This document shows positions 1 through 29,378 of a DNA stretch of 34,844 bases, in pieces; the stretch's first letter is position 1, and each line of letters opens with the position of its first letter. The position numbers and the translations under genes were made by a program. Below the pieces are notes generated by a model. The model saw only the letters and a program-made list of their open reading frames with translations. It had not been told where the DNA came from and ran no database searches. Source of the stretch: a virus (lineage: Duplodnaviria; Heunggongvirae; Uroviricota; Caudoviricetes); the IMG/VR virus record IMGVR_UViG_2579778601_000008, positions 1 through 34,844 of that record; one strand, written 5' to 3'.

Positions 1-1011
1 TTATAACGTCACTCCGCCTTTTAGTGGATTCAGAGCGACGGCATTTTGCAGATAGTCAGGCGCAAGGTGCGCATAGGCCATCGTCTGCTGAATGCTCGCA
101 TGTCCCAGAATCTGTTGCAGTGCGATTATATTGCCCCCGTTCATCATGAAATGGCTTGCGAATGTATGCCGCAGGATGTGGGTTGCCTGATTGGGTGGTA
201 TATCAGGTTTCACTCTGCGTAAAATCCCGCAAAATTTCTCATAATCAACTTTGAATAATTTGGCGCTGGCCTCCTCTTTAACTTTTTTCTCCAGTTCCTC
301 AGAAATCGGCACGGTTCGCTTTTTACCGTTTTTGGTTTTCAGGAAGGTAACCCTGCAATTTGTAATCTGTGCTGGTTTTAGCGTGGCAACTTCCGTCCAT
401 CTTCCTCCAGTGCTCAGACATAAAAGCGCGACAAGTAAGTCATCACCAGCCAAAACATTTAACAGTTTTTCGATTTCTGCTTTTTCCAGGAACGTCATTT
501 CAGGGTTGGCCTCCGCCAGTGGCGGCAGTCCGTGAATTGGGTGTTGCCCGGAAAATTCATCCAATTGAATTAATTTTGTGAACATGCCGGATAATCTGTA
601 CATGTCACGGTTTATCGTTGCGGCACTGATACCATCACGTAGTCGCATGGAACGATAATCCATCAAAGCCCTTTTGCTCATCCTGCTCACTGGTATATCA
701 CCTATGCCGCTGATGGTTTTGAGTAGATGATTAAACTCTTTTGTTCCATGCTCGTGGTTTTGCCCGTGATATTTCCACCAGATGTCCAGCAACTCACTCA
801 AAGTCCGGCGGTCTGCTCGCTGGCCTCCCCATTCTTTCTGACTGGCATTGGCGATTGTGTATCGCTCAAATGCTAGTGCTTCAGCTTTTCTTTCGAATTT
901 CCTGCGGATGCGTTTTCCGTCGCGACCGCGAGGTCTAATGTCCACTTCATAGCGACCATCATCGAGCTTCTTAATTGCCATAAGAAAGCCCTCCGGCGCT
1001 GTATTCACCAT
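1..1011 (-). CDS. int: Phage integrase, tyrosine recombinase (P2 Int-like)
   Basis: 336-aa ORF; C-terminal catalytic region ...HILRHTFASHFMMNGGNIIALQQILGHASIQQTMAYAHL... typical of tyrosine recombinases; sits beside the C repressor as in P2. Stop codon is at window positions 1-3, so the gene is complete. Confidence 0.92.
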   Translation of the reverse strand: MVNTAPEGFLMAIKKLDDGRYEVDIRPRGRDGKRIRRKFERKAEALAFERYTIANASQKEWGGQRADRRTLSELLDIWWKYHGQNHEHGTKEFNHLLKTISGIGDIPVSRMSKRALMDYRSMRLRDGISAATINRDMYRLSGMFTKLIQLDEFSGQHPIHGLPPLAEANPEMTFLEKAEIEKLLNVLAGDDLLVALLCLSTGGRWTEVATLKPAQITNCRVTFLKTKNGKKRTVPISEELEKKVKEEASAKLFKVDYEKFCGILRRVKPDIPPNQATHILRHTFASHFMMNGGNIIALQQILGHASIQQTMAYAHLAPDYLQNAVALNPLKGGVTL

Positions 1012-3237: not shown

Positions 3238-3509
3238 GTATTCGTATTGAAATTGGCGAACGTTATGTCGTTACCAGTGACAGCTTTCAGTTTATTCTCC
3301 ACGAGAAAAAGAGAGCGGAAAGCGGTAAAAACGCCGGTCAGGAATGGCTGTCGGTGGTTGGTTATTACCCGAAATTAAGCCAGCTCGTTTCCGGCCTGAT
3401 GCATCACGATATTCTGACCGGAAGCGCAAAGTCTTTTGCTGATTTAAACGTGCAGGTTGAGCAACTCAGCAAGCGTTGTTCAGAGGCTTTTGGCTCATAT
3501 GGCCGTTAA
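3234..3509 (+). CDS. Small early protein (position of P2 orf83)
   Basis: 91-aa ORF; its stop overlaps the start of gene A. Confidence 0.6.
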   Translation: MSIRIEIGERYVVTSDSFQFILHEKKRAESGKNAGQEWLSVVGYYPKLSQLVSGLMHHDILTGSAKSFADLNVQVEQLSKRCSEAFGSYGR

Positions 3510-5775
3510 AGCCTCCGGGCGTTTTGTCCCTCCGTCAGCATTTGCCGCAGGCACCGGTAAGGCGTTTACCGGTGCTTATGCATGGAACGCGCCACGCGAG
3601 GCTGTCGGGCGCGAAAGACCCCTTACACGTGACGAGATGCGTCAGGTGCAAGGGGTTTTATCCACGATTAACCGCCTGCCTTACTTTTTGCGCTCGCTGT
3701 TTACTTCACGCTATGACTACATCCGGCGCAATAAAAGCCCGGTGCACGGGTTTTATTTTCTCACATCCACTTTTCAGCGTCGTTTATGGCCGCGCATTGA
3801 GCGTGTGAATCAGCGCCATGAAATGAACACCGACGCGTCGTTGCTGTTTCTGGCAGAGCGTGGCCATTATGCGCGTCTGCCGGGGATGAATGACAAGGAG
3901 CTGAAAAAGTTTGCCGCCCGTATCTCATCGCAGCTTTTCATGATGTATGAGGAACTCTGCGATGCCTGGGTGGATGCGCATGGCGAAAAAGAATCGCTGT
4001 TTACGGATGAGGCGCAGGCTCACCTCTATGGTCATGTTGCTGGTGCTGCACGTGCTTTCAATATTTCCCCTCTCTACTGGAAAAAATACCGTAAAGGGCA
4101 GATGACCACGAGGCAGGCATATTCTGCCATTGCCCGTCTGTTTAACGATGAGTGGTGGACCCATCAGCTTAAAGGCCAGCGTATGCGCTGGCATGAGGCG
4201 TTACTGATTGCTGTCGGGGAGGTCAATAAAGACCGTTCTCCTTATGCCAGTAAACATGCCATTCGTGATGTGCGTGCACGCCGCCAGGCAAATCTGGAAT
4301 TTCTTAAATCGTGTGATCTCGAAAACAGGGAAACCGGCGAGCGCATCGACCTTATCAGTAAGGTGATGGGCAGTATTTCTAATCCTGAAATTCGCCGGAT
4401 GGAGCTGATGAACACCATTGCCGGTATTGAGCGTTACGCCGCAGCAGAGGGTGATGTGGGGATGTTTATCACGCTGACCGCGCCGTCAAAGTATCACCCG
4501 ACACGTCAGGTCAGAAAAGGCGAAAGTAAAACCGTCCAGCTAAATCACGGCTGGAACGATGAGGCATTTAATCCAAAGGATGCGCAGCGTTATCTCTGCC
4601 GTATCTGGAGCCTGATGCGCACGGCATTCAAGGATAATGATTTACAGGTCTACGGTTTGCGTGTCGTCGAGCCACACCACGACGGAACGCCGCACTGGCA
4701 TATGATGCTTTTTTGTAATCCGCGCCAGCGTAACCAGATTATCGAAATCATGCGTCGCTATGCGCTCAAAGAGGATGGCGACGAAAGAGGAGCCGCGCGA
4801 AACCGTTTTCAGGCAAAACACCTTAACCGGGGCGGTGCTGCGGGGTATATCGCGAAATACATCTCAAAAAACATCGACGGCTATGCACTGGATGGTCAGC
4901 TCGATAACGATACCGGCAGGCCGCTGAAAGACACTGCTGCGGCTGTTACCGCATGGGCGTCAACGTGGCGCATCCCGCAATTTAAAACGGTTGGTCTGCC
5001 GACAATGGGGGCTTACCGTGAACTACGCAAATTGCCGCGCGGCGTCAGCATTGCTGATGAGTTTGACGAGCGCGTCGAGGCTGCACGCGCCGCCGCAGAC
5101 AGTGGTGATTTTGCGTTGTATATCAGCGCGCAGGGTGGGGCAAATGTCCCGCGCGATTGTCAGACTGTCAGGGTCGCCCGTAGCCCGTCGGATGACGTTA
5201 ACGAGTACGAGGAAGAGGTCGAGAGGGTGGTCGGCATTTACGCGCCGCATCTCGGCGCGCGTCATATTCATATCACCAGAACGACGGACTGGCGCATTGT
5301 GCCGAAAGTTCCGGTCGTTGAGCCTTTGACTTTAAAAAGCGGCATCGCCGCGCCTCGGAGTCCTGTCAATAACTGTGGAAAGCTCACCGGTGGTGATACT
5401 TCGTTACCGGCTCCCACACCTTCTGAGCACGCCGCAGCAGTGCTTAATCTGGTTGATGACGATGTTATCGAATGGAATGACCCGGAGGTCGTGAGGGCGC
5501 TCAGGGGCGCATTAAAACACGACCGGAGAACGCCAAACCGTCAGCAAAGAAACGGAAGCCCGTTAAAACCGCATGAAATTGCACCATCGGCCAGACTGAC
5601 CCGGTCGGAACGATTGCAAATTACCCGTATCCGCGTTGATCTCGCTCAGAACGGTATCAGGCCGCAACGATGGGAGCTTGAGGCGCTGGCGCGTGGCGCG
5701 ACCGTAAATTATGACGGGAAACCTTTCACTTATCAGGTCGCTGATGATTGGCCGGGATTTTTGTTACCCATTTGA
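3499..5775 (+). CDS. A: Replication initiation protein A (rolling-circle nicking endonuclease)
   Basis: Start chosen at internal ATG 3499 (MAVKASGRFVPP...), which matches the P2 gpA N-terminus as I recall it; ~758 aa; follows B and the small orfs. Confidence 0.9.
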   Translation: MAVKASGRFVPPSAFAAGTGKAFTGAYAWNAPREAVGRERPLTRDEMRQVQGVLSTINRLPYFLRSLFTSRYDYIRRNKSPVHGFYFLTSTFQRRLWPRIERVNQRHEMNTDASLLFLAERGHYARLPGMNDKELKKFAARISSQLFMMYEELCDAWVDAHGEKESLFTDEAQAHLYGHVAGAARAFNISPLYWKKYRKGQMTTRQAYSAIARLFNDEWWTHQLKGQRMRWHEALLIAVGEVNKDRSPYASKHAIRDVRARRQANLEFLKSCDLENRETGERIDLISKVMGSISNPEIRRMELMNTIAGIERYAAAEGDVGMFITLTAPSKYHPTRQVRKGESKTVQLNHGWNDEAFNPKDAQRYLCRIWSLMRTAFKDNDLQVYGLRVVEPHHDGTPHWHMMLFCNPRQRNQIIEIMRRYALKEDGDERGAARNRFQAKHLNRGGAAGYIAKYISKNIDGYALDGQLDNDTGRPLKDTAAAVTAWASTWRIPQFKTVGLPTMGAYRELRKLPRGVSIADEFDERVEAARAAADSGDFALYISAQGGANVPRDCQTVRVARSPSDDVNEYEEEVERVVGIYAPHLGARHIHITRTTDWRIVPKVPVVEPLTLKSGIAAPRSPVNNCGKLTGGDTSLPAPTPSEHAAAVLNLVDDDVIEWNDPEVVRALRGALKHDRRTPNRQQRNGSPLKPHEIAPSARLTRSERLQITRIRVDLAQNGIRPQRWELEALARGATVNYDGKPFTYQVADDWPGFLLPI

Positions 5776-5992
5776 GTAAAAATACAGCGTGATTTTATAT
5801 GTCTTTGAATGGATTATGCGAAGCACCTCTAAGGTAGATGAGGAGCAATAGCGTGTTGAATCAGAAGGCTAAATTGTATTGAATCGTTAGCATGTAATTG
5901 AAGGCAGCTATTTGATTCGAGTCATAAAAGAGCATCTATTTCGGTTAATAAAACCATTGCGAGTGACTTTATGTCGAAGCATAATTCATCTC

Positions 5993-6006
5993 GAGCGAAG
6001 TCTTGC
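5993..6006. repeat. 14-bp direct repeat GAGCGAAGTCTTGC, copy 1 (preceded by GAGTGACT at 5961)
   Basis: Exact 14-mer recurs at 6257-6270; both copies are preceded by GAGTGACT. Confidence 0.8.
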
Positions 6007-6035
6007 TAGTCTTTCATCGGATTGATGACGGGCGC

Positions 6036-6067
6036 AAAAAAACCACCCTGGCAGGTGGTTTTTTTGT
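6036..6067. terminator. Bidirectional intrinsic terminator
   Basis: GC-rich hairpin (AACCACC..GGTGGTT) flanked by A7 upstream and T7 downstream; lies downstream of gene A (+) and of the small minus-strand ORF. Confidence 0.7.
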
Positions 6068-6077
6068 TTGAAGCATA

Positions 6078-6191
6078 CTAAAGAAAAATACTTACATGGA
6101 TATTACTGACGTTTACTGACAAACCACTCGGACTACCATATGGATAGCCAAAGAGGGCCAGAACGAGAATGCAGTAATAGCACTTCTTCAT
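6078..6191 (-). CDS. Candidate small hydrophobic peptide (37 aa), possible type-I-toxin-like or small membrane protein
   Basis: My own translation, not in the supplied ORF track (below its length cutoff): MKKCYYCILVLALFGYPYGSPSGLSVNVSNIHVSIFL. AGGAGG lies 4 nt upstream of the ATG; the stop codon is directly followed by the intrinsic terminator. Confidence 0.35.
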   Translation of the reverse strand: MKKCYYCILVLALFGYPYGSPSGLSVNVSNIHVSIFL

Positions 6192-6256
6192 ATCGCCTCC
6201 TGTAAGCAGAGGGCAATTTCCGCCGATATATGCGCTTCTAAGGCGGAGTGACTATT

Positions 6257-6270
6257 GAGCGAAGTCTTGC
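6257..6270. repeat. 14-bp direct repeat GAGCGAAGTCTTGC, copy 2 (preceded by GAGTGACT at 6246)
   Basis: Exact match to 5993-6006; the two copies bracket the terminator and the 37-codon ORF. Confidence 0.8.
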
Positions 6271-6912
6271 CCTGAAATAATGCTCTGTTTAAACGCAAAG
6301 TGATCTGGCATATCACCGAACAGAGGACCTGAACAACACAACATATAGTATGTCGTTGTTTCTGGTTGCATTTTATGTTGTGTAATACTGGTTTTGCATC
6401 AAGGATGTTTGAGCTTTTTTTGATATAGCTCAAAGTAAAAAGCAGAGACTACGGATGATAAGGTCTTGAAAGCAATGTAAATTTTTTAAAGTTGTGAGTG
6501 GCTAGAAATGCACAGTTTCAATATGGCGGATTTAAACAAGTAATTAAAAATAGCGACATAAATTCCAATAAAATCATTAAGTTGCGTTTTCTGTGGAAAC
6601 TTCGGTGACTCTGAAATTTTCTTTTAGTGTCGCTGAGGTTTAACAACGCGCTGCGCAAGTAGTTAGTGTTTTTTTAACTCAATATTCTGATTTATAAGGT
6701 TTTTTATAAATCGTGGACTGGTTGCGCGTATTCATCTCGTGTTATCAGCAAAGATAAGCTCTATATGCAGAACGGAATGCATATATGATGTCGAAAATGT
6801 TATGGGAAAACGTGGATTAGTGTTATAGTAATGGCTGAAAAACAGCCTTGACATAAAATAACAACTGTGATATGGCTGTGCATACTTAACTTTTTTAACG
6901 TAGGAGGCAACC

Positions 6913-7398
6913 ATGAGCTATGCAGCTAAAAAACTGCTTGACCGCTATTGGGATCGCCGACTACCTGTCGATCCGTTTAAGCTTGCTAAAGCGTGGGGTG
7001 CTCGTGTTGAAGCACTTGAGGAATCGGCTTATAACAACGATGGGTTAAGCGGTCTGGCTGTCATCAAAAAGGGTGTCCATAGGATTTATTTTGATTCTAG
7101 TGAACATTCTAATCGTCAACGTTTTACTGTTGCACACGAGTTAGGTCATCATGTGCTGGGGCATACCCAGGACGGAGAGTACCATCGGGATAATGTCGGG
7201 AATTATTCAACAGGTGCTCGTGATTACCGTGAGGTTGAAGCAAACAAGTTTGCTGCTGAGTTGTTAATGCCTGAGTCTGCTATACGTCAATTGGTATCCA
7301 GAGAAGGTATTGATAGCACTTTGAGATTAGCAAGCATCTTTAATGTATCAGAAGCCGCTATGCATTGGCGCTTAAAGAGCTTAGGAATGGCTTATTAA
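6913..7398 (+). CDS. ImmA/IrrE-family (DUF955-like) zinc metallopeptidase, no attached HTH domain
   Basis: 161-aa ORF with HEXXH motif in ...FTVAHELGHHVLGH...; AGGAGG 6 nt upstream of the ATG; AT-rich upstream region with TTGACA at 6848. Confidence 0.75.
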   Translation: MSYAAKKLLDRYWDRRLPVDPFKLAKAWGARVEALEESAYNNDGLSGLAVIKKGVHRIYFDSSEHSNRQRFTVAHELGHHVLGHTQDGEYHRDNVGNYSTGARDYREVEANKFAAELLMPESAIRQLVSREGIDSTLRLASIFNVSEAAMHWRLKSLGMAY

Positions 7399-7425
7399 TT
7401 AGCCTTTAACTTTTAACCTGTTTAA

Positions 7426-7462
7426 AATCACCTTTACGTTTGTACATGTAAGGGTGATTTTT
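7426..7462 (+). terminator. Hairpin plus T-tract between the peptidase and membrane-protein genes (possible attenuator or partial terminator)
   Basis: Inverted repeat AAATCACCTTT...AAGGGTGATTT followed by TTTTTT running into the ATG at 7465. Confidence 0.4.
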
Positions 7463-7464
7463 TT

Positions 7465-8064
7465 ATGGCTGATATTGATTTATCTGGACAGTCCCCAGAG
7501 CAAGGAACCACTCCTAAGGGCGATTCAGATCCTGATATCCTTATAAGGCGAGATAGACGGGATGGTATAGAGCGTAGAAGTATGCGATTAGTGCTCTCTG
7601 CCGTTGTGCTTTGTTTTGCTTGTACATTTCTATGGCAGGGGCTTAACTTTGCTTTGGCTGTTGGAAATGGCTTGCTGGAAGCGAAAAGCAGTATTGCCGC
7701 AGCGATAACACAAAAAGTAGATACACAAACTTGTGTTTCAGCAGAAAAATGTTCTGCTTTATCTTCGGATCCGAAGATGGCTGATGAGAGGATAACACCA
7801 TCTTCAGACACTAATAAAGTTAGAAAATCTATTTCTGGTTTATCCACCGATTGGTTATCGGCCAGTTCTCTAATAGCTATTGTTGCATTCATCCTTGGTG
7901 TGGGTTTAACTTTGCTTTTGACTCTTCTTAAATCAGCATTTCAACACCCGACAGATAAAGACTTTAGAACAAAGTCGACATCTAATACTATTGAGTTGGC
8001 CACGCCAATCAGTGAATTAATAATTGGTGTTCTGAATATAATTAAAGACAAACTATCTAAGTAA
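7465..8064 (+). CDS. Predicted two-TM membrane protein of unknown function
   Basis: 199-aa ORF; charged N-terminus (RRDRRDGIERR); hydrophobic segments LVLSAVVLCFACTFLWQGLNFALAV and SLIAIVAFILGVGLTLLLTLL; two Cys in the intervening loop; amphipathic C-terminus; co-oriented with the peptidase gene. Confidence 0.6.
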   Translation: MADIDLSGQSPEQGTTPKGDSDPDILIRRDRRDGIERRSMRLVLSAVVLCFACTFLWQGLNFALAVGNGLLEAKSSIAAAITQKVDTQTCVSAEKCSALSSDPKMADERITPSSDTNKVRKSISGLSTDWLSASSLIAIVAFILGVGLTLLLTLLKSAFQHPTDKDFRTKSTSNTIELATPISELIIGVLNIIKDKLSK

Positions 8065-8146
8065 AGCATTAGTTGTGATTTTTTATTGGTTTTAGTGATA
8101 ATACATCTCCAGTACTTATTGTTACTGGAGAGTATTTTTAGTCGTT

Positions 8147-9088
8147 TTATATTTTTAATGTTAGTGAATGATATTCACGAGAGTTCACGTTCGATGTGAT
8201 GTAATCGGGGGCGTTAACACCAAGAATCGCAACGAGTAATCGGCAAATTAAAGCCTGCATTTGTTGTAATATGTCATCTCCATATTGATAATTGTTAATA
8301 GTGGTAAAGCCAAGTGGTTGACCATGAAACATAGCTTCATGAAAGTTTTCATTGCGGATGTTTGTAATGTTTTTTTTGCCTGTAACCCATGATGGTCGTG
8401 GTATTCCATAAGTTTTGCAGATCCACTTCAAGCGCCTGGAGTGATTTAGAGTCTTTTCTGTACACTTGTTCTTTTCTGCCCATGTTAAAGCAAAGCAACT
8501 ATCCAGTGCCATATAAAGATACTGGAATTTTTCGAAGCTAAGGTATTGTGGGTTTTGGGATAAAAATAGTGCATGCACTATTGCTGCTATATTTATTGGT
8601 GCGTGTTTGGTTTTTGTCTCGCTAGACATGTATTTGAGTGCTAATTCTATAACCTCTTTTTCAGAGCACTTGACCAGAATAAAGTCAGTTAATTTGCTGG
8701 GTTTTATTGGGGTTGCGTCTAAAAAACCGGCATCAGTAGTTGTTAATCTTATCCCTTTGAAAAAAGACAGACACCACACAGCAAAATTGAGAGTTTCTAG
8801 TGAAGATGTATTTTTTAATTTTAGTGAGTGTGTTTTGGGTAAGCCAAATACTCGTTGGCTAAAAGGCATTGTGGATATGCCTCCATTGAGGTTATATACT
8901 TCTTGGTTTCCTGGGTATATCCAACCGTTAATAACATTTCTGTGATTGTTTATAAGATTTGTTTTTTCCGCTAGACCGGGTAAAGTAAGTAAAGAAAAAT
9001 CATCAGTTTCAACGTTAACTTCTACTGGATAGTATCCAAACTCAGCTTCAATATCATTGGATTGCTGTTCGTCAACTTTACCTTGCAT
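8147..9088 (-). CDS. Hypothetical 313-aa protein with RNxxxH motif (possible HEPN-type nuclease)
   Basis: Long ORF in a markedly AT-rich stretch, convergent with the two upstream genes; GGAG 6 nt upstream of ATG; motif RNENFH near residue 245; no P-loop or HEXXH seen. Confidence 0.65.
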   Translation of the reverse strand: MQGKVDEQQSNDIEAEFGYYPVEVNVETDDFSLLTLPGLAEKTNLINNHRNVINGWIYPGNQEVYNLNGGISTMPFSQRVFGLPKTHSLKLKNTSSLETLNFAVWCLSFFKGIRLTTTDAGFLDATPIKPSKLTDFILVKCSEKEVIELALKYMSSETKTKHAPINIAAIVHALFLSQNPQYLSFEKFQYLYMALDSCFALTWAEKNKCTEKTLNHSRRLKWICKTYGIPRPSWVTGKKNITNIRNENFHEAMFHGQPLGFTTINNYQYGDDILQQMQALICRLLVAILGVNAPDYITSNVNSREYHSLTLKI

Positions 9089-9326
9089 ACATTGCTCCGG
9101 TCAAAAATAGGCTCGATAATTCTCGTAAGCCTATCATGTTCGCAAAGTATCCATACCTGTGGATTTTGTAAATTTAAGTTGATTTGTCATTAAATAAGCC
9201 GTTGCATGCAACAAGTGAATGTTTTTGCATGCGTCGGGGATGTCCGTTCAGGCTGCGTGCGGTCAGGACTGGTGCGGATCCATAGTATCTATGCAACTGC
9301 ATTAAAACCGCCCCATGAAGCGGGCG

Positions 9327-9345
9327 GGCGAGGCGGGGAAAGCAC
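9327..9345. other. cos (cohesive end site) of P2-type phage
   Basis: GGCGAGGCGGGGAAAGCAC matches the 19-nt P2 cohesive end as I recall it; located just upstream of the portal gene Q. Confidence 0.7.
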
Positions 9346-9486
9346 TGCGCGCTGGCGGTGGTGCTGATTTTATTTTTTCAGCGTCTGAGCGCGTCGTGAT
9401 GGCGTTTAGATTGTTAGCCGGGGCGTTGGTGTGTCTGCGGGCTATTTTGTGCGGTGGTGAGCGTGTGAGGGCGTGATGGCGGGTTG

Positions 9487-9510
9487 TAAAAAAGCCGCCC
9501 GCAGGCGGCG
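9487..9510 (-). terminator. Intrinsic terminator downstream of Q (minus strand)
   Basis: Hairpin GCCGCC-CGCA-GGCGGC followed, on the minus strand, by a T6 run immediately after the Q stop. Confidence 0.6.
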
Positions 9511-9514
9511 ATAT

Positions 9515-10549
9515 TCAGCCGTTGTCAGTGTCCAGTGAGTAGTTTTTAAAGCGGATGACCTCCTGACCGAGCCAGCCGTTTATCTCGCGGATCCTGTCCT
9601 GTAGCGGGATAAGCTCATTGCGGACAAAGACCTTTGCCACTTTCTCAATATCACCCAGCGACCCGACGTTCTCCGGCTTGCCGCCCATCAACTGAAAGGG
9701 GATGCGGTGCGCGTCCAGCAGGTCAGCGGCGCTGGCTTTTTTGATATTAAAAAAATCGTCCTTCGTTGCCACTTCACTGAGCGGGATAATTTTGATGCCG
9801 TCGGCTTTCCCCTGTGGGGCATAGAGAAACAGATTTTTAAAGTTGTTGCGGCCTTTCGACTTCACCATGTTTTCGCGGAGCATTTCGATATCGTTGCGAT
9901 CCTGCACGGCATCGGTGACGTACATGATGTATCCGGCATGAGCACCGTTTTCGTAATACTTGCGGCGGAACAGCGTGGCTGATTCATTCAGCCAGGCAGA
10001 GTTAAGGGCGCTGAGATATTCCGGCAGGCCGTACAGCTCCTGATTAATATCCGGCTCCAGCAGGTGAAACACGGAACCGGGCGCGAAGGCTGTCGGTTCG
10101 TTGAAGGACGGCACCCACCAGTAAACATCCTCCTCCACGCCACGGCGGGTATATTTTGCCGGTGAGGTTTCCAGTCTGATGACCTTACCGGTGGTGCTGT
10201 AACGCTTTTCCAGAAACGCATTACCGAACACCAGAAAATCCAGCACAAAGCGGCTGAAATCCTGCTGGGACAGCCACGGATGCGGGATAAATGTCGAGGC
10301 CAGAATATTACGTTTGACGTAAATCGGTGAGCTGTGATGCACGGCAGCACGCAGGCTTTTTGCCAGACCAGTAAAGCTGACCGGTGGTTCATACCATCTG
10401 CCGTTACTGATGCACTCGACGTAATCCAGAATGTCACGGCGGTCGAGTACCGGCACCGGCTCACCAAAGGTGAATGCTTCCATTTTCGGGGCGCTGGCGG
10501 TCATTTTTTTTGCCGCAGGTTGCTGTGTTTTCCCTTTTTTCTTGCTCAT
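9515..10549 (-). CDS. Q: Portal protein (capsid portal vertex)
   Basis: 344-aa ORF; length and sequence agree with P2 gpQ as I recall it; start ATG overlaps the P stop (ATGA). Confidence 0.92.
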   Translation of the reverse strand: MSKKKGKTQQPAAKKMTASAPKMEAFTFGEPVPVLDRRDILDYVECISNGRWYEPPVSFTGLAKSLRAAVHHSSPIYVKRNILASTFIPHPWLSQQDFSRFVLDFLVFGNAFLEKRYSTTGKVIRLETSPAKYTRRGVEEDVYWWVPSFNEPTAFAPGSVFHLLEPDINQELYGLPEYLSALNSAWLNESATLFRRKYYENGAHAGYIMYVTDAVQDRNDIEMLRENMVKSKGRNNFKNLFLYAPQGKADGIKIIPLSEVATKDDFFNIKKASAADLLDAHRIPFQLMGGKPENVGSLGDIEKVAKVFVRNELIPLQDRIREINGWLGQEVIRFKNYSLDTDNG

Positions 10550-26882: not shown

Positions 26883-27632
26883 TCACTGATCTCCTTCGGT
26901 CAACGGAGATTGTATTTTCCGCATTGATTCTCCTTTAAGTTCGATCTTGATACTGCCATGAACCAGTCGATCTAGGATGGCATCCGCATGTGTGGAGTCT
27001 CCGATCATTTTGTACCAGTTTTCCACCGGCAACTGGCTCACTACGATGATTGAGCCTCGTTGGTACATCAGATCCACTATTTCCAGCAGGTCGCTACGCT
27101 GTTCTGATGAGAGAGGTTCCAGCCCCCAGTCATCCAGAAGCAGCAGATCGCTATTATTCAGCCTGGTCAAAAGTTTGCTGTATCTTCCATCAGCATGCCC
27201 CTGATAGCACTGTTCCATCAGCGCTTTAAGGCGATAATAGTAGACCTTGTATCCCTGTCGGCAGGCATTATGACCAAGTGCACATGCCAGGAACGTTTTA
27301 CCGCTGCCGGTGGCCCCGGTCAGTAAAATATTTTGTTTCAGGGTTAACCAGTTTCCCTGACTGAGTGAACGGATGAGGGCCCTGTCCAGCCCTCTATTGT
27401 TACGATAATCCAGCTTTGATAACTCAGCATTAAGTCTGAACCGTGCATGTTTGATCAGACGCTCTGCCTTCCTGTTTTCACGGCAGGTTAGTTCTTCTGC
27501 TGTCAGTAATGACAGGCGTTCTTCGAAGCCCAGCTCCTGGTATGTGCCCGGTTGAGCAAGTTGCTTTTTAAGCGCATCACGGAAGCCGGTGAGTTTAAGT
27601 GCGGTCAGTTGTTCGTAAAGATGATTCATCAT
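26883..27632 (-). CDS. istB: IS21-family helper ATPase IstB
   Basis: 249-aa ORF with Walker A (GATGSGKT) and Walker B (LLLLDDWG) motifs, typical of IstB. Confidence 0.9.
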   Translation of the reverse strand: MMNHLYEQLTALKLTGFRDALKKQLAQPGTYQELGFEERLSLLTAEELTCRENRKAERLIKHARFRLNAELSKLDYRNNRGLDRALIRSLSQGNWLTLKQNILLTGATGSGKTFLACALGHNACRQGYKVYYYRLKALMEQCYQGHADGRYSKLLTRLNNSDLLLLDDWGLEPLSSEQRSDLLEIVDLMYQRGSIIVVSQLPVENWYKMIGDSTHADAILDRLVHGSIKIELKGESMRKIQSPLTEGDQ

Positions 27633-27643
27633 TGGATCCCGTA

Positions 27644-29185
27644 TCAGTGGTAATACTCACTGCCGCGTACGTTTTCGTGTTCCATCGTGGATAACAGATC
27701 TGGTTTTGGATCCTGAACAGGTTGTTTATCCAGACCTTTTTCCAGGATCGATTTAATACCTGACAGACGCCATACCTTTGTTTTCAGAGCTCTTGCACAT
27801 GCTGCATTAAGTCTGGCTTTACTGTATTTTTTATGAAGGTTCAGGAGTCCAAGGCAGAAGCGATAGCTTTGTTCCGGATGTGGACGAGAGTTCAGTATAT
27901 GAAGCACATAACTATGAGTTTCACTGCCTATGTGCCCCGCCCATTCCAGAAGACGCTCTGGCGTCCAGGTGGCATGCTGTCGATGAGCTTCAGGCATGTG
28001 CTCGTTGCGGGTACTGTAGCCATAAGTACGCTTGCGCGGGTGCACAGCAACCTCCTGCCCCTGATTGAAGAGTCTTACCAGTTCTCCGGAGATCCATGCT
28101 TCCAGTTGCTGGCCTAACAGCGAACATGGAACCGAGTAGTAATGTTTGTCGATTTCCACGTGGTAATCGGCATGAACTCTGACTTTCTTCACCAGGGTGT
28201 AACTGTAACTGGCTTCAGGAAGAGGCTTCAGTGCGGGTTTATCAAGCTGGATGAAGAGTTCTGCACGTGAATAACCCAACTTCTGCATTATTTTGTTATT
28301 CAGTCTTTCCAGCAACTCCCGAATGCGCTGATTAAGCGATGCAAGGCTGTAGAAGATCTCATGCCTGATTCGGGCCATGATCCAGCGTTCAACAACCTGA
28401 ACGCCAACTTCAGCTTTGGCTTTATCTTTCGGTTTACGTGGCCGCGCAGGCAAAACTGCGACATTATAATGCTCAAGCATCTGCTGGTAGGTAGGGTTAA
28501 CGTCAGGATCATACTTACATGCCCTGGATGTGGCGCTTTTCAGATTGTCCGGAACAACAAGTTCAGGAACGCCACCCAACCACTGGAAGCAGCGAACATG
28601 ACTCATCACCCAGTCTTCAAGCTGCTGAGACCAGGTGGCCTCTGCCCATGTGTAACTTGATGCCCCGAGAACAGCTACGATGACCTGAGCAGTTCTTATT
28701 TCTCCGGTCTCAGGGTCGGTAACGCCAACGGTAGGTCCACAGTAATCAACGAAAAGTTTTTCGCCAGCTTTATGTACCTGACGCATTGATGGTGAAGTGG
28801 TTTTGAGCCATTCACGGTACATCCGGCAGTAATGGTTATAGCTGTAAAAACCGCCTGGATTACGCTCACAGTATTCTTCCCAGAGTAGCTGCAGCGTCAC
28901 GCATTTATTACGCAGTTCCCGGTGTACTGTAGCCCAGTCAGGCAGAGAGTGCTTCTTCATCTTAACCTGGGTCTGAAGGAACGCATGTTTTAGTTTTGTA
29001 TCATCCCATCCTGTAGGTAAGGGCCACTGCTTTATGCCAAGTTGAGCCGCCCGATTAGCATATCTGGATACAACGGAAGGGGAGATTGCAAGACTACGAC
29101 CAATTTGTCGATGGCTGAGTCCAACACCGTATTTAAGCCTAAGAATTTCTTTAAGTTTTCTCATAGAAATTGGAACTGTTGGCAT
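27644..29185 (-). CDS. istA: IS21-family transposase IstA
   Basis: 513-aa ORF with an N-terminal HTH and DDE-type integrase core, immediately upstream of istB. Confidence 0.9.
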   Translation of the reverse strand: MPTVPISMRKLKEILRLKYGVGLSHRQIGRSLAISPSVVSRYANRAAQLGIKQWPLPTGWDDTKLKHAFLQTQVKMKKHSLPDWATVHRELRNKCVTLQLLWEEYCERNPGGFYSYNHYCRMYREWLKTTSPSMRQVHKAGEKLFVDYCGPTVGVTDPETGEIRTAQVIVAVLGASSYTWAEATWSQQLEDWVMSHVRCFQWLGGVPELVVPDNLKSATSRACKYDPDVNPTYQQMLEHYNVAVLPARPRKPKDKAKAEVGVQVVERWIMARIRHEIFYSLASLNQRIRELLERLNNKIMQKLGYSRAELFIQLDKPALKPLPEASYSYTLVKKVRVHADYHVEIDKHYYSVPCSLLGQQLEAWISGELVRLFNQGQEVAVHPRKRTYGYSTRNEHMPEAHRQHATWTPERLLEWAGHIGSETHSYVLHILNSRPHPEQSYRFCLGLLNLHKKYSKARLNAACARALKTKVWRLSGIKSILEKGLDKQPVQDPKPDLLSTMEHENVRGSEYYH

Positions 29186-29378
29186 AGGTATCCTTTACCG
29201 GAATGGCAAAAGATACAGATCAACACACCTGTGAAGTTCCAATAACATTGATGGAGATCACTGAATAACAAAATGAGTCAAAAGTGATCTCCATCGATGT
29301 TATTCAGCGATCTGTTCAAATGTTATTACCCGATCTCGATGGAAGTTATTGAGTGATCTCCTTTCATGAAAATACGCA

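What the first reader, a model, noticed from the sequence alone, without database searches (positions are those of the whole stretch)
7426..7466. Terminator-like hairpin whose T-tract runs into the membrane-protein start codon
A 10-11 bp inverted repeat (AAATCACCTTT / AAGGGTGATTT) followed by T6 sits in the 66-bp gap between the peptidase and membrane genes, with the T-run ending at the ATG. This looks like an attenuator that would keep the putative membrane effector at a low level relative to the peptidase, as expected if the downstream product is toxic.
Basis: inference. Interest (0 to 1): 0.38.

Follow-up and report, generated by a model that had tools for sequence, protein, structure and literature searches.

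The report
Terminator hairpin masking a ribosome site
Between a protease gene and a membrane-protein gene carried by a P2-type prophage sits a real, evolutionarily conserved RNA hairpin that looks like a leaky transcription stop and also hides the ribosome-binding site of the membrane gene, an ordinary kind of device that should keep the membrane protein scarce relative to the protease.

Summary
A 14-nt inverted repeat (7424-7437 / 7448-7461; 16 bp as RNA) is followed by T7 (7458-7464), which abuts ATG 7465. It lies in the 66-nt gap between an ImmA/IrrE (M78) peptidase gene and a 2-TM protein gene in the cargo hotspot of a P2-like prophage.

It is not chance. It is one of only 7 terminator-grade sites in the window, against 0.45 expected. 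The same hairpin + T-run + ATG occurs in 27 of 28 related peptidase/TM modules from different mobile elements. At least four unrelated stem sequences carry compensatory changes.

It is predicted to be fully paired, whereas the peptidase has an invariant, open AGGAGG.

Best reading: a constitutive intercistronic intrinsic terminator that also occludes the downstream RBS, setting peptidase well above membrane protein. No antiterminator, RNA thermometer or DNA-operator features were found. Termination in vivo, translational repression and toxicity of the membrane protein remain inferred.

This is a new member of a known kind, of modest interest.

The parts
6848..6876 (+). Putative operon promoter: -35 TTGACA (6848-6853), 17-nt spacer with an extended -10 TG (6868-6869), and a weak -10 TATGGC (6871-6876).
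   Evidence: Read from the sequence. The block TTGACA-N14-TGTGATA(A/T)GGCT is conserved in the window, L002 and L029, and partly in L033. It falls below the threshold of the consensus scan, so it is only putative.
6902..6907 (+). Shine-Dalgarno AGGAGG of the peptidase gene, strong and mostly unstructured.
   Evidence: GTAGGAGG..ACCATG is invariant in 11 of 11 diverse loci. The duplex with the anti-SD is -10.2 kcal/mol. Opening the RBS costs 7.9 kcal/mol.
6913..7398 (+). ImmA/IrrE-family (Peptidase_M78) Zn-metallopeptidase, 161 aa, with the HELGHH motif and no HTH domain.
   Evidence: Pfam PF06114, 3.8e-21. PADLOC capP 1.1e-30 and RmrA peptidase-domain hits. phrog_87 metallo-protease. The RefSeq annotation agrees.
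7424..7461 (+). Conserved RNA hairpin. The 5' arm is 7424-7437 (A-tract plus AUCACC, identical to part of the 16S 3' tail). The loop is 7438-7447, with two further pairs possible. The 3' arm is 7448-7461.
   Evidence: Searches show the repeat and the fold. Conservation in 27 of 28 related loci comes. Covariation: 8 of 14 pairs have double changes and 0 of 500 shuffles reach the observed values. The covariance model finds exactly one strong hit per locus, and the + strand scores well above the - strand.
7452..7458 (+). Shine-Dalgarno of the membrane-protein gene (GGGUGAU), buried in the 3' arm of the hairpin.
   Evidence: The duplex with the 16S 3' end is -10.2 kcal/mol. P(unpaired) is 0.00-0.01, and opening -20..+13 costs 25.1 kcal/mol. 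It is still paired at 80 C in silico.
7458..7464 (+). T7 run. It is the U-tract of the terminator-like element and also the SD-AUG spacer.
   Evidence: The run is 6-8 T in 33 of 34 AUCACC-type loci and 5-7 T in most of the distant clades. The tail score nT is 5.0.
7465..8064 (+). Membrane-protein gene, 199 aa. It encodes a variable Pro/Gln/Ser-rich N-terminus, a conserved ERRxMR juxtamembrane motif, two predicted TM helices and a conserved C-terminal helix. Function is unknown and no Pfam or PADLOC family matches.
   Evidence: ORF. phrog_8096 matches over 1-199 of 199. 52 homologues were found, and alignment A1 conserves residues upstream of internal Met40, so ATG 7465 is the start. AF2 gives three long helices at low confidence.
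8106..8131 (.). Inverted repeat between the convergent membrane gene and the 313-aa gene. It is a weak terminator-like hairpin at the 3' end of the operon.
   Evidence: Listed on both strands by the consensus scan. It scores d < 10 in my scan.

Best explanation
The hairpin is a constitutive intercistronic control element with two coupled effects on one RNA.

Proposed sequence of events:
1. The peptidase and membrane genes are transcribed together from a promoter just upstream of the peptidase.
2. As RNA polymerase leaves the peptidase gene it transcribes an A-tract, a 14-16-bp stem-loop and U7.
3. A fraction of polymerases terminate in the U-tract, with 3' ends predicted at about 7461-7466. 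This yields a monocistronic peptidase mRNA capped by a protective 3' hairpin.
4. Transcripts that read through carry the membrane gene. Its intrinsically strong Shine-Dalgarno (GGGUGAU) is the 3' arm of the same hairpin, paired to an anti-SD-like 5' arm (AUCACC), so 30S binding is rare.
5. The peptidase, by contrast, has an invariant, open AGGAGG.

The net result is a hard-wired excess of peptidase over membrane protein. That ratio is expected if the peptidase neutralises or controls a membrane-active toxin or effector.

Shown here: the structure, its conservation and covariation, the U-run, the position of the SD and the lack of a competing fold. Inferred: termination and its efficiency, translational repression, and toxicity of the membrane protein.
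For: 1. Structure and chance.
2. The two-gene module (161-aa M78 peptidase, then a 66-75-nt gap, then the TM protein) recurs in several contexts. These are P2 hotspots, phages next to terminase, P1-like elements, plasmid par loci and Vibrio elements. In 27 of 28 loci the gap ends with hairpin + T-run + ATG.
3. Stem sequences differ completely between clades while pairing is kept: AUCACCUUUAC/GUAAGGGUGAU, AUCACCAU(U/C)AU/AU(A/G)AUGGUGAU, GCCACC/GGUGGC, GGCCAC/GUGGC(U) and GCCCUCA/UGAGGGC. On alignment A2, 91% of cells are paired, 8 of 14 pairs show double changes, and 0 of 500 shuffles reach the observed values.
4. The CACC-to-GGUG distance varies from 17 to 20 nt, and loops are not conserved.
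5. The terminator score is positive in 22 of 24 versions, with window d = +19.4. That is comparable to the other intergenic terminators of this prophage, which score 18.7-51.4.
6. The element is orientation-specific. The + strand scores 55-70 bits against 22-40 bits for the - strand with the CM, and no - strand terminator hit was found at this site.
7. The SD always lies in the G-rich 3' arm. P(unpaired) is about 0, and opening costs 14-27 kcal/mol against 5-11 for the peptidase RBS. The SD itself is strong, at -9 to -10 kcal/mol.
8. The peptidase RBS is invariant in 11 of 11 loci.
9. The 5' arm has no alternative partner in the upstream 150 nt (z from -1.05 to +1.36).
Against: There are no transcript data, so termination in vivo is unproven.

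The stem is long and A/U-rich next to the U-tract, with 3-4 G-C pairs in 14-16 bp. Loops reach 10-13 nt in some homologues, and d scores are only moderate (2-25). The generic consensus scan did not list the site.

Two homologues keep the hairpin but have broken T-runs: L033 has TTTTA and L017 has TTATT. The hairpin can therefore persist without a good U-tract.

One distant homologue (L040) has no hairpin at all, only a 30-nt AT-rich gap without an SD.

My d score uses Turner-2004 energies rather than the original parameter set.

A variant of the gene pair, cloned by Rousset et al., was not among the systems reported to defend against their 8 phages. The biological rationale (toxic effector) is therefore untested.
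Confidence: 0.6

Rival explanations
1. The hairpin is purely a translational operator. It exists to mask the membrane gene's SD. The U-run is only an A/U-rich spacer or S1-binding site, and little or no transcription termination occurs.
For: The SD is in the 3' arm in every clade and the ATG always follows at a fixed short distance. That is a translation constraint, not a termination constraint. L033 and L017 keep the hairpin with a degraded T-run. The stems are longer and more A/U-rich than typical terminators.
Against: A homopolymeric T6-8 run is kept in four unrelated stem types, although a spacer does not need to be all T. An upstream A-tract is conserved as well. The distant clades carry short GC-rich stems plus T6-7, which are textbook terminators (GCCACC..GGUGGC-U6, GCCCUCA..UGAGGGC-U5). 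22 of 24 versions score d > 0.
Confidence: 0.2
2. The hairpin is an efficient stop for peptidase transcripts, combined with fold-back protection. The membrane gene would have its own weak promoter, with a -10 (TAAAAT/TAGAAT/TACAAT) just 5' of the stem and a transcript starting inside the 5' arm. Native transcripts would then lack the masking arm and be translatable, while read-through transcripts would be terminated and masked. This is IS10-like logic.
For: A -10-like hexamer ends 31-36 nt before the ATG in several clades: window TAAAAT 7423-7428, L002 TAGAAT, L016/L028 TACAAT, L026/L039 TAGAAT.
Against: The -35 matches are poor (2-4 of 6), and the site is not reported by the promoter scan. 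The large AUCACCAUCAU clade has only TATAAA without the key final T. The hexamer is explained more simply as the A-tract that pairs with the U-tract.
Confidence: 0.07
3. The hairpin is a conditional switch. It keeps a strong RBS and the downstream toxin silent until infection or stress opens it or drives read-through. Possible triggers are phage antitermination factors, an RNA helicase, RNase cleavage of the 5' arm, or a trans-acting RNA. The result would be a burst of membrane protein.
For: The masked SD is intrinsically as strong as the peptidase's (-9 to -10 kcal/mol). That is more than is needed for constitutive low expression, and L040 achieves low expression with no SD at all. The module sits in a defence hotspot.
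Against: No alternative structure was found in cis. No conserved loop sequence is available as a binding site, since the loops vary freely. The strong SD can be a by-product of needing G-C pairs in the stem. No trigger is known.
Confidence: 0.08
4. The element is a DNA-level palindrome bound by a dimeric regulator (an operator), or it is a chance repeat.
For: The half-sites AATCACC and GGTGATT are highly conserved in sequence within the main clade.
Against: Half-site spacing varies from 17 to 20 nt. Other clades replace both half-sites by different but complementary sequences. No DNA-binding protein is encoded in the module, and the peptidase lacks an HTH. Function is strand-asymmetric. Chance is excluded.
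Confidence: 0.03

Closest known systems
Intercistronic (internal) intrinsic terminators or attenuators that set gene ratios within operons, such as the rplL-rpoB attenuator and terminator T1 between rpsU and dnaG in E. coli (own knowledge, not tested here)
   Same: A stem-loop plus U-tract lies between two co-transcribed genes and acts constitutively and partially. It lowers the dose of the distal gene, and the hairpin can also stabilise the upstream message.
   Different: Here the U-tract abuts the next start codon, so the distal gene's SD lies inside the terminator stem. Transcriptional and translational damping are therefore fused in one helix. The element belongs to a small mobile two-gene module rather than a housekeeping operon.
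Expression platforms in which a terminator or sequestering helix contains the SD (dual-acting riboswitches, TRAP-controlled trpE SD-sequestering hairpin, fold-back inhibition of IS10 transposase) (own knowledge)
   Same: The SD is paired to an upstream anti-SD-like segment, and the same helix can end in a U-run.
   Different: No ligand-binding aptamer, leader peptide, protein-binding repeats or alternative antiterminator or anti-sequester fold were found. The element appears hard-wired rather than switchable.
RosmerTA (RmrT/RmrA) and related Zn-peptidase antitoxin / toxin pairs (Millman et al. 2022 preprint; Ernits et al. 2023, PMC10440598)
   Same: An ImmA/IrrE-type Zn-peptidase is paired with a small protein of unknown fold. 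The RmrT of Gordonia phage Kita is membrane-localised and depolarises the membrane. These pairs are carried on phages and in defence hotspots. The peptidase domain hits RmrA profiles down to 6e-17.
   Different: The peptidase here has 161 aa and no N-terminal HTH domain. The membrane protein hits no RmrT model or any other PADLOC model. Toxicity, neutralisation and defence are untested. A near relative cloned as 'Peptidase + TM' (pFR104) was not among the systems reported to defend.
CapP/CapH regulators of CBASS (PADLOC capP model)
   Same: This is the best profile match of the peptidase (1.1e-30), and it is an M78 protease.
   Different: Only profile positions 8-153 of 242 are matched. There is no CapH-like HTH partner and no CBASS genes nearby.

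Membership tests
Rho-independent (intrinsic) terminator | A stable stem-loop immediately followed by a U-rich tract of about 7-9 nt on the sense strand | tested here: met
   The core hairpin UCACC..GGUGA folds at -14.1 kcal/mol, or -17.9 with the A:U extension, and is followed by U7. The tail score nT is 5.0.
Rho-independent (intrinsic) terminator | A composite score in the range of known terminators (d'Aubenton-Carafa d > 0) and rare by chance | tested here: met
   The window scores d = +19.4, and 22 of 24 homologues score d > 0. There are 7 sites with d >= 10 in the window against 0.45 in shuffles. Caveat: modern energy parameters were used.
Rho-independent (intrinsic) terminator | A G+C-rich stem, especially at its base next to the U-tract, and a short loop | tested here: inconclusive
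   The window stem has 3-4 G-C pairs in 14-16 bp and an A-U/U-A base, and loops are 5-13 nt across the family. The distant clades have GC-rich 5-7-bp cores. The generic scan did not list the site.
Rho-independent (intrinsic) terminator | RNA 3' ends generated at the U-tract in vivo or in vitro | not testable with these tools
   No transcriptome data were available.
RBS-sequestering hairpin (translational operator) | The Shine-Dalgarno and/or start codon is base-paired in a stable local helix | tested here: met
   The SD GGGUGAU 7452-7458 has P(unpaired) of 0.00-0.01, and the opening cost is 25.1 kcal/mol. The same holds in 5 other clade representatives.
RBS-sequestering hairpin (translational operator) | The helix is maintained by compensatory evolution | tested here: met
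   8 of 14 pairs have changes on both sides and 0 of 500 shuffles reach the observed values. Slid controls give 27-68% of cells paired against 91% for the true register.
Regulated transcription attenuator (antiterminator/terminator switch, leader peptide or ligand) | A mutually exclusive alternative structure or leader ORF overlapping the 5' arm | tested here: not met
   The best upstream partner of the 5' arm is no better than in shuffled sequence (z from -1.05 to +1.36) and is 2-4 times weaker than the hairpin. The peptidase stop lies 25 nt upstream of the stem. There is no Rfam cis-regulatory hit.
RNA thermometer | The SD helix melts between about 30 and 42 C | tested here: not met
   Mean P(unpaired) of the SD is 0.001 at 37-42 C and 0.04 at 80 C in silico.
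DNA operator palindrome | Conserved half-site sequence at fixed spacing | tested here: not met
   Spacing varies from 17 to 20 nt, and half-sites are replaced by other complementary sequences in other clades.
RosmerTA (for the gene pair) | RmrA antitoxin consisting of an Xre-type HTH fused to an M78 peptidase | tested here: not met
   Only the peptidase domain is present (Pfam M78 at residues 54-155 of 161). The matches cover only the C-terminal part of the RmrA profiles, for example positions 146-267 of 363.
RosmerTA (for the gene pair) | A partner recognised as RmrT, plus toxicity neutralised by the peptidase | tested here: not met
   The membrane protein has no PADLOC hit at E <= 0.1. Toxicity and neutralisation are not testable here.

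The most novel reading that the evidence does not exclude
The hairpin is an infection-responsive fuse. It locks an intrinsically strong RBS and stops transcription in front of a membrane toxin. An invading phage releases it, for example through processive antitermination, RNAP modification or RNA cleavage that removes the anti-SD arm. Phage transcription takeover would thereby be converted directly into a burst of an abortive-infection effector, with the peptidase as a buffer.
Probability: 0.08. Interest if true: 0.6.

Novelty: new member of a known kind. Interest (0 to 1): 0.3.

Why it matters
The result provides a concrete, testable cis-element that fixes the stoichiometry of an uncharacterised, widely mobile two-gene module: a stand-alone ImmA/IrrE peptidase plus the phrog_8096 membrane protein. 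The module occurs in P2 defence hotspots, other phages and plasmids.

The design is strong open RBS, then terminator/RBS mask, then membrane protein. This is indirect evidence that the membrane protein is harmful when over-made and that the peptidase is its keeper, which is Rosmer-like toxin-antitoxin logic without the HTH.

There are practical consequences too:
- It corrects the start codon used in some annotations and in a published clone table, which use internal Met40 rather than the ATG abutting the T-run.
- It warns that cloning or expressing the membrane gene from its native leader will give very little protein.
- This could bear on the 'Peptidase + TM' clone not being among the systems reported to defend.

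Tried and rejected
1. Rfam scan of 5700-9600 at E <= 1 found nothing at the hairpin.
2. RNA thermometer was rejected.
3. Antiterminator or alternative fold was rejected, and no leader ORF was seen. An ATG-TAA mini-ORF at 7446-7451 exists only in the window's variable loop.
4. DNA operator was rejected on variable spacing and covariation.
5. Internal promoter: only a -10-like hexamer is present, with no convincing -35, and it is not universal. It is kept as a low-probability rival.
6. The outer helix UUAGCC (7399-7404) / GGCUGA (7467-7472) predicted in the window is not conserved in homologues, so I dropped it.
7. The search for related loci on genome contigs returned no confirmed relatives. 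Viral and metagenome scans and exact-protein look-ups supplied the comparative set instead.
8. The CM-based realignment still misaligned the three most divergent stems (L017, L038, L039) and mixed in reverse-strand hits. I therefore did not recount pairs on it, and the count on A2 is conservative.
9. The AF2 model of the membrane protein had mean pLDDT 64 and pTM 0.42 and showed only long helices. I judged it too poor for a fold search.
10. Literature searches for a precedent of a terminator between antitoxin and toxin genes found nothing specific.

Full report
**Context.** The window is a P2-like (Peduovirus) prophage of E. coli/Salmonella.
- The integrase lies at 1-1011(-), replication gene A at 3457-5775(+), portal Q at 9515-10549(-), and terminase and structural genes lie beyond.
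- Between A and Q there is a low-GC island at about 5800-9500, with 35-43% GC against 52-60% elsewhere.
- This is the cos-proximal 'old/tin' hotspot of P2-like phages, described as a reservoir of anti-phage systems (Rousset et al. 2022, PMC9122126).
- The finding lies inside this island, between a 161-aa ImmA/IrrE (Peptidase_M78) metallopeptidase (6913-7398) and a 199-aa protein with two predicted TM helices (7465-8064; phrog_8096, no Pfam or PADLOC family).
- Identical copies occur in 47 of 5,426 complete E. coli genomes and in a Salmonella phage.

**The observation.**
- The sequence is AAAATCACCTTTAC-gtttgtacat-GTAAGGGTGATTTT-TTT-ATG.
- The repeat finder gives 14-nt arms at 7424-7437 and 7448-7461.
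- As RNA the helix extends to 16 bp. The 82-nt intergenic RNA folds at -23.6 kcal/mol (z = -5.3).
- The gap is 66 nt, and the T-run is T7 (7458-7464) and touches ATG 7465.
The repeat is longer than stated, and the run is T7 rather than T6.

**Chance.**
- I scanned both strands of the window with a d'Aubenton-Carafa-type terminator score.
- Only seven sites reach d >= 10, and all are intergenic. This one scores +19.4.
- Its neighbours in the list are the obvious terminators after the portal gene, after the tail-fibre genes and at 6043-6058.
- Dinucleotide shuffles give 0.45 such sites per window, and none at d >= 19.4 in 200 shuffles of the island.

**Comparative evidence.**
- The membrane protein has 52 detectable homologues, almost all in Enterobacterales with a few in Vibrio.
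- I recovered DNA for 28 distinct loci from IMG/VR, metagenomes and exact-protein look-ups.
- In every one the membrane gene is preceded by a 160-164-aa M78 peptidase, normally at a distance of 66-75 nt.
- The surroundings differ: P2 hotspots, a terminase neighbourhood, P1-like phages, plasmid parAB, integrases and resolvases.
- The pair is therefore a self-contained mobile module.
- In 27 of 28 loci the gap ends with A-tract, hairpin, T-run and ATG. The rest of the gap is not alignable between clades.

**Stem types and covariation.** The stem sequences fall into unrelated types:

| Clade | 5' arm / 3' arm |
|---|---|
| Window | AUCACCUUUAC / GUAAGGGUGAU |
| Main clade | AUCACCAU(U/C)AU / AU(A/G)AUGGUGAU |
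| 24-30%-identity clade | GCCACC / GGUGGC |
| L039 | GGCCAC / GUGGC(U) |
| Vibrio | GCCCUCA / UGAGGGC |

- On a MAFFT alignment of 24 distinct versions, 91% of cells pair and 8 of 14 pairs show changes on both sides.
- None of 500 shuffles reaches any of these measures, and slid registers fall to 27-68% paired.
- The count is conservative because three divergent rows are misaligned.
- The window's own stem differs from the commonest type by two double changes: A-U to U.G, and U-A to C-G.
- A covariance model finds exactly one strong hit per locus, none elsewhere in the window and none in L040. The sense strand scores far above the antisense strand.

**Terminator features.**
- The T-run is 6-8 in 33 of 34 AUCACC-type loci and 5-7 in most of the others.
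- The upstream A-tract is also conserved.
- 22 of 24 versions have d > 0.
- The distant clades look like textbook terminators, for example AAAGCCACC-N10-GGUGGCUUUUUU.
- There are weaknesses. The window's stem is long and A/U-rich at its base, scores are moderate, and two homologues (L033, L017) keep the hairpin with a broken T-run.

- In every clade the G-rich strand is the 3' arm and sits 5-8 nt before the ATG: GGGUGAU, GGUGAU, GGUGG, GAGGG.
- It is the membrane gene's Shine-Dalgarno. The 5' arm (AUCACC) is identical to part of the 16S 3' tail (own knowledge), so it is an anti-SD mimic.
- The SD is intrinsically strong, at -9 to -10 kcal/mol against the anti-SD, equal to the peptidase's.
- It is nevertheless predicted to be fully paired, with P(unpaired) of about 0. 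Opening -20..+13 costs 14-27 kcal/mol, against 5-11 for the peptidase RBS.
- The peptidase RBS, GTAGGAGG..ACCATG, is invariant in 11 of 11 diverse loci.
- The fixed contact between T-run and ATG is a translational constraint. The all-T composition and the A-tract are termination-type features. Both are conserved, so I conclude the helix does both jobs.

**What it is not.**
- No Rfam family matches.
- The 5' arm has no alternative partner in the upstream 150 nt, and the peptidase stop lies 25 nt upstream of the stem. It is therefore not a switchable attenuator and is not translationally coupled.
- It is not a thermometer.
- It is not a DNA operator, given the variable spacing and covariation.
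- A -10-like hexamer just 5' of the stem recurs in some clades but lacks a -35 and is not universal. I keep an IS10-like internal-promoter model only as a minor rival.

**Start codon.**
- Some annotations start the membrane protein at internal Met40. These are OU784750 and the pFR104 row of Rousset's clone table.
- Alignment A1 shows invariant residues upstream of that Met (D5, E36, R38), and the ORF always opens at the ATG abutting the T-run.
- phrog_8096 matches over 1-199 of 199.
- When the run is T8, gene callers over-extend the ORF to GTG ('MVIFFM').

**Biology of the pair.**
- The peptidase matches the peptidase domains of capP and RmrA but lacks their HTH or partner.
- RosmerTA systems pair a Zn-peptidase antitoxin with diverse toxins, and one of these toxins depolarises membranes.
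- By analogy the membrane protein may be a toxin or effector and the peptidase its controller. This would explain the enforced peptidase excess, but it remains inference.
- Rousset et al. cloned a variant of this pair ('Peptidase + TM', E. coli TA280, with the same peptidase as my L002). They report defence for only three other systems of the eight cloned.

**Verdict.** The feature is real, conserved and functional as an RNA hairpin. Most likely it is a constitutive intercistronic terminator that doubles as an RBS mask. The mechanism is of a known kind, but the element itself is undescribed. Interest is modest.

Noticed in passing
window 26883-29185 (-), and inverted repeat 29241-29304: An IS21-family insertion sequence lies among the P2 late (tail-region) genes. 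It encodes IstA (513 aa, rve plus Mu-transposase C) and IstB (249 aa, PF01695 at 2e-67). A 22-nt inverted repeat lies just beyond it (I1).
   Followed up: partly
window 5776-6912: About 1.1 kb of the hotspot has no annotated gene. It contains a perfect bidirectional terminator, CAAAAAAACCACC-ctggca-GGTGGTTTTTTTG, at 6035-6066. It also contains a 37-aa hydrophobic ORF at 6078-6191(-), MKKCYYCILVLALFG..., preceded by AGGAGG. This could be a small membrane peptide or toxin gene. It has no PHROG hit.
   Followed up: partly
window 7458-7464; L018 2990-2995; L010/L012/L034: The T-run before the membrane-gene ATG varies between 6, 7 and 8 T, even between near-identical copies (window T7, L018 T6). 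This suggests slippage that would tune both U-tract strength and SD-AUG spacing.
   Followed up: partly
window 7465-7584; L002 3737-3880: Public annotations (OU784750) and the clone table of Rousset et al. 2022 start the membrane protein at internal Met40 and call it 1-TM. Conservation upstream of that Met and phrog_8096 indicate the ATG at 7465 and two TM helices.
   Followed up: yes
window 8147-9088 (-): A 313-aa protein (phrog_5937, unknown function, no Pfam or PADLOC hit) is convergent with the module. It is absent from the other copies of the module examined, so it is probably a separate cargo gene.
   Followed up: partly
L040 2971-3000: One distant homologous module (27% identity) has no hairpin, no T-run and no recognisable SD. 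It has only a 30-nt AT-rich gap. This may be an alternative way of keeping translation low.
   Followed up: partly
L026 5855-5896: Another GC-rich terminator directly abuts an ATG (AAAAGGCCTTCTC-atg-GAGAAGGCCTTTTTT-ATG) elsewhere in a related locus. The covariance model picked it up at low score.
   Followed up: no
window 6848-6876 and homologous positions in L002, L029: A promoter-like block, TTGACA-N14-TGTGATA(A/T)GGCT, is conserved upstream of the peptidase in modules from different genomic contexts. The module therefore seems to travel with its own promoter.
   Followed up: partly
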